From sequence record OR757454.1: a stretch of DNA of 64,000 bases; one strand, given 5' to 3'. This document shows, piece by piece, positions 1,526 through 51,118 of the stretch. Each line of letters starts with the position of its first letter. Positions within the stretch are counted from its first letter, which is position 1. The stretch comes from Escherichia phage BYEP02. Below the pieces are notes generated by a model. It saw nothing but the letters and a program-made list of their open reading frames with translations, did no database searches and was not told where the DNA came from. The translations under genes were made by a program, and so were the position numbers.

Positions 1526-1752
<227 letters not shown>

Positions 1753-2550: not shown

Positions 2551-2901
2551 ATGAAAGGTAATGTTTATTTAGTAGTTCATGATTTAACATTTTACTTCAA
2601 TGAATATGAAAAACATATCTCATTTCGTGAAATTAATTTACTTTATCAACATGCGGATTATATTTATATTCAAAACGAATTTGGTCATTGGCAATTTCTC
2701 AAAAATCGTTCATTTGGCTTAGATGGTTACGAATACTTTGAACGTAAAGACCTTTTAGATAAAATTCCGTTATCTACGCAATATCAAAATCACAAATCTT
2801 TATATAAATGCCGTCCAATTCGAAATGTTGAATCCGCGTATGAAGCAATTGATTTATGGCGTGAACGCCGTAAACAGATTGATGCTTTAAAAGAATATTA
2901 A
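2551..2901 (+). CDS. hypothetical protein (116 aa)
   Basis: ATG with GAGGA RBS directly after tRNA-Arg. Confidence 0.5.
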   Translation: MKGNVYLVVHDLTFYFNEYEKHISFREINLLYQHADYIYIQNEFGHWQFLKNRSFGLDGYEYFERKDLLDKIPLSTQYQNHKSLYKCRPIRNVESAYEAIDLWRERRKQIDALKEY

Positions 2902-2904
2902 GAA

Positions 2905-3160
2905 ACCGGGTCGCTACCGGTAAGTCGTCGGACTGATGTTCCCTGAGTAAGGAATTGCGTTAATAATCTTTGCGTTTATTGATGCCCTCTTACATCACAG
3001 CAGAAACGGCGCACCGAATTATCGATTCGAGGAAATATCTTTGCCGTAAGCCGAGTAGCGTTTTTGACGGAACGTTCGGATATGGTCGAGATATGGCCTT
3101 TTAAAAATATTGAGTAGCGTCAACTGCTTAATAACCGGGTTCGAATCCCGGCGTTTCGTA
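2905..3160 (+). ncRNA. possible small stable RNA(s) distal to tRNA cluster
   Basis: Non-coding GC-rich stretch with tRNA T-arm-like element (ccgggttcgaatcccgg); position matches where T4 has small stable RNAs. Confidence 0.3.
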
Positions 3161-3210
3161 CAAACACTTGCCTTAGCAGGTGGAACCCCGACAAGGTTGC
3201 CGCAAGGCTT

Positions 3211-3239
3211 AGCCCCGACCGAAAGGTTGGGGCTTTTTG
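3211..3239 (+). terminator. intrinsic terminator, 10-bp stem, GAAA loop, T-tract
   Basis: agccccgacc-gaaa-ggttggggct followed by ttttt. Confidence 0.7.
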
Positions 3240-3291
3240 GTATAACACTTGCCTTAGCAGGTGGAACCCCGACAAGGTTGCCGCAAGGCTT

Positions 3292-3320
3292 AGCCCCAGC
3301 CGAAAGGTTGGGGCTTTTTA
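3292..3320 (+). terminator. intrinsic terminator (second repeat unit)
   Basis: agccccagcc-gaaa-ggttggggct followed by tttt. Confidence 0.7.
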
Positions 3321-7407: not shown

Positions 7408-8802
<1,395 letters not shown>

Positions 8803-49461: not shown

Positions 49462-50279
49462 ATGATTAACGATTATATGACAGTTGAAGAAATCCGTCTT
49501 GATTTGGGTCTTGCATTAAAGGAAAAAGATTTCGTAATTGATAAAACCGGGGTTAAAACTATTGAAATTATTGGTGCATCATTTGTAGCAGATGAACCTT
49601 TTATTTTTGGCGCTCTTAATGATGAATACATTCAGCGTGAACTTGAATGGTATAAATCTAAGAGCTTGTTCGTTAAAGATATTCCAGGTGAAACACCGAA
49701 GATTTGGCAGCAGGTAGCATCTTCTAAAGGCGAAATTAACTCGAATTATGGTTGGGCTATCTGGTCAGAAGATAACTATGCTCAGTATGATATGTGTTTA
49801 GCTGAACTTGGTCAAAATCCTGATTCTCGACGTGGTATCATGATTTATACTCGTCCATCCATGCAATTTGACTACAATAAAGATGGTATGTCAGATTTCA
49901 TGTGCACGAATACAGTACAGTACCTGATTCGTGATAAGAAAGTCAATGCAGTGGTTAACATGAGAAGCAATGATTGCTGGGCAGGCTATCGTAATGATTA
50001 TGCATGGCAAAAATACGTATTAGATAAATTAGTATCTGATTTGAATGCAGGCGACCCATCGCGGCAATATAAAGCAGGTTCTATTATATGGAACGTTGGA
50101 AGTCTTTAGTATCTGATTTGAATGCAGGCGATTCAACTCGTCAGTATAAAGCAGGTTCTATTATATGGAATGTTGGAAGTCTTCATGTATATTCTCGTCA
50201 TTTTTACTTGGTTGATCATTGGTGGAATACTGGCGAAACTCATATTGTGAAAAAAGATTATAACGGTGAGTGGAAATGA
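49462..50279 (+). CDS. 42: dCMP hydroxymethylase gp42, frameshifted by a 77-bp duplication
   Basis: 246 aa after removing 77 nt; thymidylate-synthase-like fold sequence. Confidence 0.9.
50031..50184. repeat. 77-bp tandem duplication (50031-50107 / 50108-50184), about 7 clustered differences (GDPSRQY vs GDSTRQY)
   Basis: Read directly. Confidence 0.9.
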
Positions 50280-51118
50280 TTCAATTCGTAATTCCAAGCT
50301 ATCAACGCGTAGGGGCAGTTTCTGCCCTTGATATGTTTCCGACTGATTATGAACCACATATTGTAGTGCGTGAACACGAAGAAAAAGCTTATTATGATGC
50401 TTATGGGTCTAGAGCTAAAATTGTAACTATTCCTGATGATGTTAATGGAATTGCCGGTACTCGTAAAGCAATTACTGATATGTATGCAGGTCAACGAATC
50501 TGGATGATTGATGATGATACTACTATTCGTATGAGTTCAATACGAAAGAGAGACGATAAACGGCGCGTAGATAAAATTAATCAATTAACTCGTGAACAGT
50601 TCTATGAATTAATTCAATACGTTGAGGATGCTATGGATTGCGGGTATTATCACGGTCATGCTCGTCTACCAATTTTTAAAATTACTTCATCTTGGGGTAA
50701 TTATCGTGAAAACTCATATGGATTCACGAATACATGGTATGACCTCGGAAAACTTACGACAGAACAAATTGGGTATGGAAAAATTGATTTATGTGAAGAT
50801 ATGTACGCATTTCTCAATTTAATTAATCAAGGTTATCCGCATTTGGCCTTGTTCAAATATCTAGTTGTATCTGGAAAATCACACGCTCCCGGCGGGTGCA
50901 GTTCAATTCGTAGTAATTCTAAACATAATAGAGCGCTTGAACAAATCAATAGAGAGTTTCCAGAGCAAGCTCGTTGGAAAACTTCTAATATTGAAAAACG
51001 AAAATCGTTGGGTGAAGAAGACGAGCCATTAAAGGTTCTTCGCATGTGTGTTTCTCGTAAAGAAAAATCAGAAGCATTTCATAAGTTTAATGCTATTCAT
51101 CCAATAGCAGTTGATTAA
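50276..51118 (+). CDS. putative glycosyltransferase in the beta-gt position but unlike T4 beta-gt (possibly T2/T6-type beta-glucosyl-HMC alpha-glucosyltransferase)
   Basis: 280 aa ORF between 42 and uvsX; family assignment by position and size only. Confidence 0.5.
   Translation: MIQFVIPSYQRVGAVSALDMFPTDYEPHIVVREHEEKAYYDAYGSRAKIVTIPDDVNGIAGTRKAITDMYAGQRIWMIDDDTTIRMSSIRKRDDKRRVDKINQLTREQFYELIQYVEDAMDCGYYHGHARLPIFKITSSWGNYRENSYGFTNTWYDLGKLTTEQIGYGKIDLCEDMYAFLNLINQGYPHLALFKYLVVSGKSHAPGGCSSIRSNSKHNRALEQINREFPEQARWKTSNIEKRKSLGEEDEPLKVLRMCVSRKEKSEAFHKFNAIHPIAVD

What the first reader, a model, noticed from the sequence alone, without database searches (positions are those of the whole stretch)
50031..50184. 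Upstream duplicate in gene 42 carries clustered coding differences
The two units differ at about 7 positions, 6 of them within 16 nt, changing GDPSRQY to GDSTRQY. Clustered, coding-compatible differences look like allelic variation between related phages, not random error.
Basis: seen in the sequence. Interest (0 to 1): 0.4.

Follow-up and report, generated by a model that had tools for sequence, protein, structure and literature searches.

The report
Assembly-join duplicate in phage gene 42
The 77-base repeat in the T4-like phage's dCMP hydroxymethylase gene is one of 33 equal-length stitching artefacts in this window, and its two copies differ because they carry two real natural alleles of the gene.

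Summary
Units 50029-50105 and 50106-50182 differ at 7 positions, 6 of them within 13 nt, changing GDPSRQY to GDSTRQY. The upstream unit is 100% identical to 79 Tequatrovirus records, and the downstream unit to 180, including T2 and slur03. But the duplication is not a genome feature. The window holds 33 tandem duplications, 30 of period exactly 77 nt, one 77/78 and two 81. They lie about 1.9 kb apart, and no other period between 30 and 300 nt occurs. Cut at these joins, every segment aligns in one piece to phage slur03, and neighbouring segments overlap by exactly 77 nt there. The joins frameshift genes 41, 42, 43, 44, 46, 49 and nrdD; removing one copy at each join restores them. None of about 500 related genomes has the gene 42 duplicate. 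77 nt is the contig-end overlap SPAdes leaves. The window alternates between slur03-identical stretches and a second natural haplotype, so it is a two-source, untrimmed contig concatenation. One side note is biological: the GDPSRQY allele usually travels with a Seg-like homing endonuclease gene downstream of gene 42. Interest is low.

The parts
49462..50109 (+). Gene 42 (dCMP hydroxymethylase) as it reads in the window. It is truncated to 215 aa by the TAG made at the join.
   Evidence: ORF list. Pfam Thymidylat_synt, E = 1.4e-10. Relatives have a 741-nt gene of 246 aa.
49905..50105 (+). 3' tail of the upstream segment. Here the sequence leaves the slur03 haplotype and follows the second haplotype, which carries the CWAGY block and the GDPSRQY allele. 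It is identical to phage EP01 from gene position 445 through the end of copy 1.
   Evidence: All 25 differences from slur03 in segment 46005-50105 lie in its last ~200 nt.
50029..50105 (+). Copy 1 of the 77-nt duplicate (end of the upstream segment), carrying allele A (GDPSRQY).
   Evidence: Exact match in 79 phage records. 7 mismatches to slur03.
50055..50067 (+). Cluster of 6 substitutions (GACCCATCGCGGCAA versus GATTCAACTCGTCAG).
   Evidence: The seventh difference is at 50094 (AAC/AAT).
50106..50182 (+). Copy 2 of the duplicate (start of the downstream segment), carrying allele B (GDSTRQY).
   Evidence: 0 mismatches to slur03. Exact match in 180 phage records, including T2.
50107..50109 (+). 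TAG stop codon created by the join (…GGAAGTCT|TTAGTATC…).
50106..50279 (+). 3' end of gene 42, in the frame displaced by the 77-nt insertion (LVSDLNAGDSTRQY…GEWK*).
   Evidence: Removing either copy gives an intact 246-aa protein.
50276..51118 (+). Next gene, beta-glucosyl-HMC-alpha-glucosyltransferase. In allele-A phages a 213-aa homing endonuclease gene usually sits between it and gene 42. The window has no such gene.
   Evidence: Annotation of relatives. Pfam TAGT. The roughly 720-nt insertion is present in L003 and DalCa.

Best explanation
The duplicate is an assembly-joining artefact. The window was built by concatenating about 34 sequence segments whose ends overlap by a fixed 77 nt, without trimming the overlaps. 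This length is the k-mer overlap that SPAdes-type de Bruijn assemblers leave on contig ends. The segments come from two sources. One is a haplotype identical to phage slur03. The other is a second natural T4-like haplotype, about 3% divergent. At the gene 42 join, the upstream segment ends in the second haplotype (allele A, GDPSRQY) and the downstream segment restarts in the slur03 haplotype (allele B, GDSTRQY). The two copies therefore display a genuine natural polymorphism of gene 42. Shown: the series of equal-length joins, their absence from relatives, the broken reading frames, the natural origin of both alleles, and the directional two-haplotype pattern. Inferred: the software route. The strong left-to-right asymmetry suggests seed-and-extend or reference-anchored joining with slur03-like sequence, or a mixed-phage sample. 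An exact k-mer overlap is less likely.
For: (1) A scan of all periods from 30 to 300 nt finds tandem duplications only at period 77 (30 sites, plus one with a 1-nt indel) and period 81 (2 sites). They are spread over the whole window with a mean spacing of about 1.9 kb. The same scan finds none in 70.5 kb of slur03 or in 14.5 kb of L003.
(2) When the window is cut at the 33 joins, 32 of the 34 segments align to slur03 in a single piece and all are colinear. Neighbours overlap by 77 nt in slur03 coordinates (78 once, 81 twice). The IMG/VR relative L003 also lacks the eight joins it spans.
(3) All listed hits among about 500 Tequatrovirus records are 77 nt shorter at gene 42. The junction string is absent from IMG/VR, metagenome contigs and genome contigs. 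The truncated 215-aa product is not on record.
(4) The joins fall inside genes 43, 44, 46, 41, 42, 49, nrdD and others. Removing one copy at each join restores ORFs of 898 aa (gp43), 605 aa (NrdD) and 546 aa (gp46).
(5) At 19 imperfect joins copy 2 equals slur03 and copy 1 differs, and never the reverse. Divergence from slur03 is 0.2-0.5% in the first 300 nt of segments and 2.1-2.6% in the last 300 nt.
(6) Both gene 42 alleles are exact natural alleles.
(7) Identical 77-bp contig-end sequences are reported as a SPAdes artefact in phage assemblies (PMC9409062).
Against: A pure de Bruijn k-mer overlap would be exact, but only 10 of the 33 overlaps are identical, and two are 81 nt long. So the simple story of untrimmed SPAdes overlaps is incomplete. 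The directional asymmetry is not explained by any pipeline I can name. No reads are available, so the artefact is inferred from comparative and internal evidence only. The source record could not be identified.
Confidence: 0.93

Rival explanations
1. The tandem duplication is real. It would be a scar of homing-endonuclease-induced double-strand-break repair between an allele-A, endonuclease-carrying phage and an allele-B phage. The broken left end copied 77 nt from the donor and was then joined to the unresected right end through a 1-nt microhomology.
For: Copy 1 is the allele linked to a Seg-like homing endonuclease gene directly downstream of gene 42. Copy 1 ends 7 nt before the next allele-A-specific block (gene positions 651-678). 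There is a 1-nt T microhomology at the join.
Against: Thirty-two other duplications of the same length occur at unrelated sites. The duplicate frameshifts a gene essential for hydroxymethylcytosine DNA, as do the joins in genes 43, 44, 46 and 41. It is absent from all related genomes and collections searched.
Confidence: 0.02
2. An exact 77-nt k-mer overlap was left between graph-adjacent contigs. One copy was later altered by read-based polishing in a mixed population of two phage strains.
For: The length of 77 and the ten exact overlaps fit untrimmed SPAdes overlaps. The differences are natural alleles, as expected from a co-occurring strain.
Against: The second-haplotype sequence extends 200 to 2,200 nt upstream of the joins rather than being confined to the duplicate. 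It always lies on the left side of the join. Symmetric polishing would not produce that.
Confidence: 0.25
3. The differences between the copies are sequencing or PCR errors in a recent real duplication.
For: None beyond the existence of mismatches.
Against: All 7 differences together reproduce an allele found exactly in 79 independent records. Four are silent changes and the clustering has P = 0.0013.
Confidence: 0.005

Closest known systems
Untrimmed k-mer overlaps of de Bruijn-graph contigs (SPAdes leaves identical 77-bp sequences at contig ends; PMC9409062)
   Same: The overlap length is fixed at 77 nt and recurs at every join. The joins are independent of gene boundaries and absent from related genomes. 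Removing one copy restores the genes.
   Different: Only 10 of the 33 overlaps are exact. Two are 81 nt long. The copies differ in a directional way, with the downstream copy equal to slur03. This points to two sequence sources or a reference-anchored joining step, not a plain graph overlap.
Natural allelic mosaicism of T-even gene 42 (dCMP hydroxymethylase)
   Same: Both 77-nt units are exact alleles in many isolates. The site reads ST in T4 and T2, PT in T6 and PS in the DalCa/ACG-C40 group. Further blocks vary in the same way: CWAGY versus VVFGF, and SRH versus ENQ.
   Different: In real genomes each allele occurs once per gene. They sit side by side only in this window.
Free-standing GIY-YIG (Seg-type) homing endonucleases of T4-like phages, with co-conversion of flanking markers (review PMC2988022)
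   Same: Allele A is linked to a 213-aa ORF inserted between gene 42 and the glucosyltransferase gene. The ORF matches PHROG 314 'homing endonuclease' (E = 8e-30) and has a GIY-YIG-like N-terminus and a weak NUMOD3 motif. Dense, largely silent substitutions next to the insertion resemble cleavage-site or co-conversion polymorphism.
   Different: The window does not contain this endonuclease gene. T4 has no endonuclease gene at this position; segA lies between beta-gt and uvsX. No cleavage site is known. T4_ev151 and CJY920 carry allele A without the endonuclease gene.

Membership tests
Assembler k-mer-overlap join artefact | The duplicate length is constant and equal to an assembler k value, and it recurs at many joins. 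| tested here: met
   30 sites have period 77, one has 77/78 and two have 81. No other period between 30 and 300 nt occurs. 77-bp SPAdes end overlaps are documented in PMC9409062.
Assembler k-mer-overlap join artefact | The duplicates are absent from closely related genomes, and the flanks are colinear once one copy is removed. | tested here: met
   The segments overlap by exactly 77 nt in slur03 coordinates. L003 lacks eight of the joins. About 500 records are 77 nt shorter at gene 42.
Assembler k-mer-overlap join artefact | The two copies are identical, as an exact graph vertex would be. | tested here: not met
   The gene 42 copies match at 70 of 77 positions. Only 10 of the 33 joins are exact. 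This is therefore a variant: a join between segments of two haplotypes or a reference.
Assembler k-mer-overlap join artefact | No sequencing read spans the junction. | not testable with these tools
   Reads and the source record are not available.
Genuine tandem duplication in a viable phage | It preserves, or plausibly alters, the function of the gene it lies in. | tested here: not met
   A 77-nt insertion shifts the frame and creates a TAG at 50107-50109, which removes the last 31 residues. The same happens in genes 43, 44, 46 and 41.
Genuine tandem duplication in a viable phage | It is seen in an independent genome or assembly. | tested here: not met
   The junction string is absent from IMG/VR, metagenome contigs and genome contigs, and from all listed hits among about 500 phage records.
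Natural allelic variation of gene 42 | Each variant occurs in independent isolates. | tested here: met
   Allele A is exact in 79 records and allele B in 180.
Homing-endonuclease target-site or co-conversion polymorphism | The variant allele co-occurs with the endonuclease gene. | tested here: inconclusive
   89 records carry an A-like allele and 78-86 carry the endonuclease gene. Every endonuclease-positive phage that could be cross-checked has allele A. T4_ev151 and CJY920 have allele A without it.
Homing-endonuclease target-site or co-conversion polymorphism | The endonuclease cleaves allele B at or near the variant cluster and does not cleave allele A. | not testable with these tools
   This needs an in vitro cleavage assay or a co-infection experiment.

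The most novel reading that the evidence does not exclude
The gene 42 join, alone or with some others, could record a real molecule: an aberrant repair product of a homing-endonuclease cut, in which 77 nt copied from an endonuclease-carrying donor (allele A) were joined ahead of the recipient's own allele B. A milder version is that the clustered, largely silent substitutions at 50055-50067 mark the still unmapped cleavage or immunity site of the Seg-like endonuclease found downstream of gene 42 in about 80 T4-like phages.
Probability: 0.03. Interest if true: 0.45.

Novelty: not a real feature. Interest (0 to 1): 0.05.

Why it matters
The main value is as a warning. This sequence carries a 77-nt artificial duplication about every 2 kb. 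These duplications frameshift many genes and mix two haplotypes. Any gene call, variant or repeat finding from this window, or from the record it comes from, should be made only after de-duplication and checked against reads. The biological residue is modest. Gene 42 of T-even phages has a small hypervariable site (ST, PT or PS) whose PS allele usually accompanies a free-standing homing endonuclease gene, which makes it a candidate cleavage or immunity site.

Tried and rejected
1. Homing-repair scar. I first took the duplicate for a homing-endonuclease repair scar, because copy 1 is the endonuclease-linked allele and the homology with the endonuclease-carrying contig L003 ends at the join. I rejected this once the whole-window scan showed 32 more joins of the same length.

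2. Source record. I looked for it with the junction string in IMG/VR, metagenome contigs and genome contigs, and with the truncated protein. Nothing was found. I also checked whether slur07 is the source. It is not; it is in the collection at 167,124 nt.

3. Identity of the second haplotype. I tested whether it is a known phage or just a site-by-site mix of slur03 with the best database match. It is neither. The best matches are 98.5-98.9% identical, and many sites differ from both.

4. Other structures and motifs. No inverted repeats or other structures lie around the join. I saw no common sequence motif at the starts of the duplicated units (by eye).

5. Endonuclease domains. Pfam did not detect a GIY-YIG domain in the endonuclease ORF at E <= 0.01 and gave only a weak NUMOD3 hit. 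The sequence search of solved structures gave nothing useful.

6. Literature. The search found no paper describing an endonuclease gene between gene 42 and the glucosyltransferase gene.

Full report
**The observation**

The window is a Tequatrovirus (T4-like) genome segment. Gene 42 (dCMP hydroxymethylase) starts at 49462. A two-copy tandem repeat of period 77 lies at 50029-50105 and 50106-50182, with one extra matching T at 50183. The copies differ at 50055, 50056, 50059, 50061, 50064, 50067 and 50094. Six of the seven differences fall within 13 nt, four are silent, and the peptide changes from GDPSRQY to GDSTRQY. Such clustering has P = 0.0013 under random placement.

Because 77 is not a multiple of 3, the join creates a TAG at 50107-50109. 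Gene 42 then reads as a 215-aa truncated ORF (49462-50109), and its last 58 codons sit in another frame (50106-50279).

**Origin of the differences**

Both units are natural alleles.
- The upstream unit is 100% identical over all 77 nt to 79 phage records, including DalCa, ACG-C40, JK23 and T4_ev151.
- The downstream unit is 100% identical to 180 records, including T2, RB3 and slur03.
- T4 has GDSTRQY, 4 nt from copy 2. T6 has an intermediate GDPTRQY, 1 nt from copy 2.

**The duplicate itself is not real**

None of about 500 related records contains it; every listed hit is 77 nt shorter. The junction string is absent from IMG/VR, metagenome contigs and genome contigs. The truncated protein is not on record.

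The decisive result is that the gene 42 duplicate is one of a series. Tandem Repeats Finder and my own scan of every period from 30 to 300 nt find 30 duplications of period exactly 77, one of 77/78 and two of 81. No other period occurs. The duplications are spread from 629 to 62002, 212 to 4101 nt apart, with a mean near 1.9 kb. The same scan finds none in 70.5 kb of phage slur03 or in 14.5 kb of an IMG/VR relative.

When the window is cut at the 33 joins, 32 of the 34 segments align to slur03 (LN881728.1) in a single piece and all are colinear. Neighbouring segments overlap by 77 nt in slur03 coordinates, 78 once and 81 twice. The relative L003 likewise lacks the eight joins it spans.

The joins fall inside genes 43, 44, 46, 41, 42, 49, nrdD, rpbA, dam, dmd and a tRNA-Pro gene, among others. 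Deleting one copy at each join restores ORFs of 898 aa (DNA polymerase), 605 aa (NrdD) and 546 aa (gp46); in the window as given, the largest ORF is 713 aa. A phage with frameshifts in all these replication genes could not grow.

**What kind of artefact**

A length of 77 nt is the contig-end overlap left by SPAdes, and this has been described for phage assemblies (PMC9409062). However, only 10 of the 33 overlaps are exact, so this is not a plain untrimmed graph overlap.

The pattern is directional.
- At 19 imperfect joins the downstream copy is identical to slur03 and all differences sit in the upstream copy. The reverse never occurs.
- Segments typically begin with hundreds to thousands of bases identical to slur03. 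They diverge only towards their 3' ends. Divergence is 0.2-0.5% in the first 300 nt and 2.1-2.6% in the last 300 nt.
- About 61% of the window is identical to slur03.
- The remaining 39% or so is a second haplotype, about 3% divergent, with changes mostly at third codon positions. Its best database matches are only 98.5-98.9% identical, and it is not a simple slur03/other mixture.

Switches from the slur03 type to the second type are seamless. Switches back carry the 77-nt duplicate.

I infer a two-source assembly. Either a mixed-phage sample was assembled, or slur03-like reference sequence was used as seed or filler. In both cases the pieces were joined from left to right without trimming a 77-nt anchor. 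I could not identify the exact software route.

**The gene 42 join in this light**

Segment 46005-50105 is identical to slur03 for its first 3.9 kb. Its last ~200 nt follow the second haplotype (the CWAGY block plus GDPSRQY), which matches phage EP01 exactly from gene position 445 through the end of copy 1. The next segment restarts at the homologous position 568 with slur03 sequence, and it stays identical to slur03 for 2.1 kb.

**Biological side note**

In about 78-86 records a 213-aa ORF lies between gene 42 and the beta-glucosyl-HMC-alpha-glucosyltransferase gene. It matches PHROG 314 'homing endonuclease' with E = 8e-30 and has a GIY-YIG-like N-terminus and a weak NUMOD3 motif.

Every such phage that I could cross-check carries the GDPSRQY allele, together with a second allele-specific block (HVYENQFY, gene positions 651-678). 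T4_ev151 and CJY920 carry both blocks without the endonuclease gene. T4 itself has no endonuclease gene at this position; its segA lies between beta-gt and uvsX (PMC2988022).

The dense, largely silent substitutions could therefore be co-conversion or cleavage-site polymorphism. This is untested, and the window does not contain the endonuclease gene.

**Verdict**

The duplicate is an assembly-join artefact, so it is not a real feature and interest is low. The practical consequence is that the whole window needs de-duplication, and haplotype checking against reads, before any further interpretation.

Noticed in passing
window 629-62002 (joins after 705, 1671, 1883, 3243, 4180, 6777, 7671, 8535, 10088, 11321, 13504, 16021, 18239, 19739, 22224, 24210, 27006, 29318, 30540, 31858, 33293, 36971, 40206, 42387, 42621, 43769, 46004, 50105, 53854, 54366, 56351, 59057, 61927): There are 33 tandem duplications of 77 nt (two of 81, one of 77/78), with 0-8 mismatches each. 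They frameshift genes 43, 44, 46, 41, 49, nrdD and others. Any other first-stage finding that rests on one of these repeats has the same explanation.
   Followed up: yes
whole window versus slur03 LN881728.1 97998-159623: About 61% of the window is 100% identical to slur03, in stretches of up to 3.9 kb. About 39% is a second natural haplotype. Switches to the second haplotype are seamless, while switches back coincide with the 77-nt joins (19 against 0). No pipeline I know explains this directional asymmetry.
   Followed up: partly
window 1595-1750: This join leaves a truncated extra copy of tRNA-Pro(TGG) ahead of the complete gene (1687-1761). The two copies differ by compensatory anticodon-stem changes (CTGCT…AGCAG versus CTGAT…ATCAG), so they are two natural tRNA alleles.
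   Followed up: partly
L007 (DalCa) 2665-3306; L003 ~7957-8678; absent from the window between 50279 and 50276: A Seg-like free-standing homing endonuclease gene (213 aa, PHROG 314) lies between gene 42 and the glucosyltransferase gene in about 80 Tequatrovirus records. It is linked to the GDPSRQY/HVYENQFY alleles. T4_ev151 and CJY920 have these alleles without the endonuclease gene. The cleavage site is unknown.
   Followed up: partly
window 49950-49989 (gene 42 positions 489-528): A second hypervariable block in gene 42, with 22 substitutions in 40 nt, changes SNDVVFGFRND to SNDCWAGYRND. The window, LH2, EP01, DalCa and T4_ev151 have CWAGY. T4, slur03 and others have VVFGF.
   Followed up: no
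L002 (phage LH2) 2597-3234: LH2 carries an annotated homing endonuclease gene between the glucosyltransferase gene and uvsX, the position segA occupies in T4. The window and slur03 have none there.
   Followed up: no
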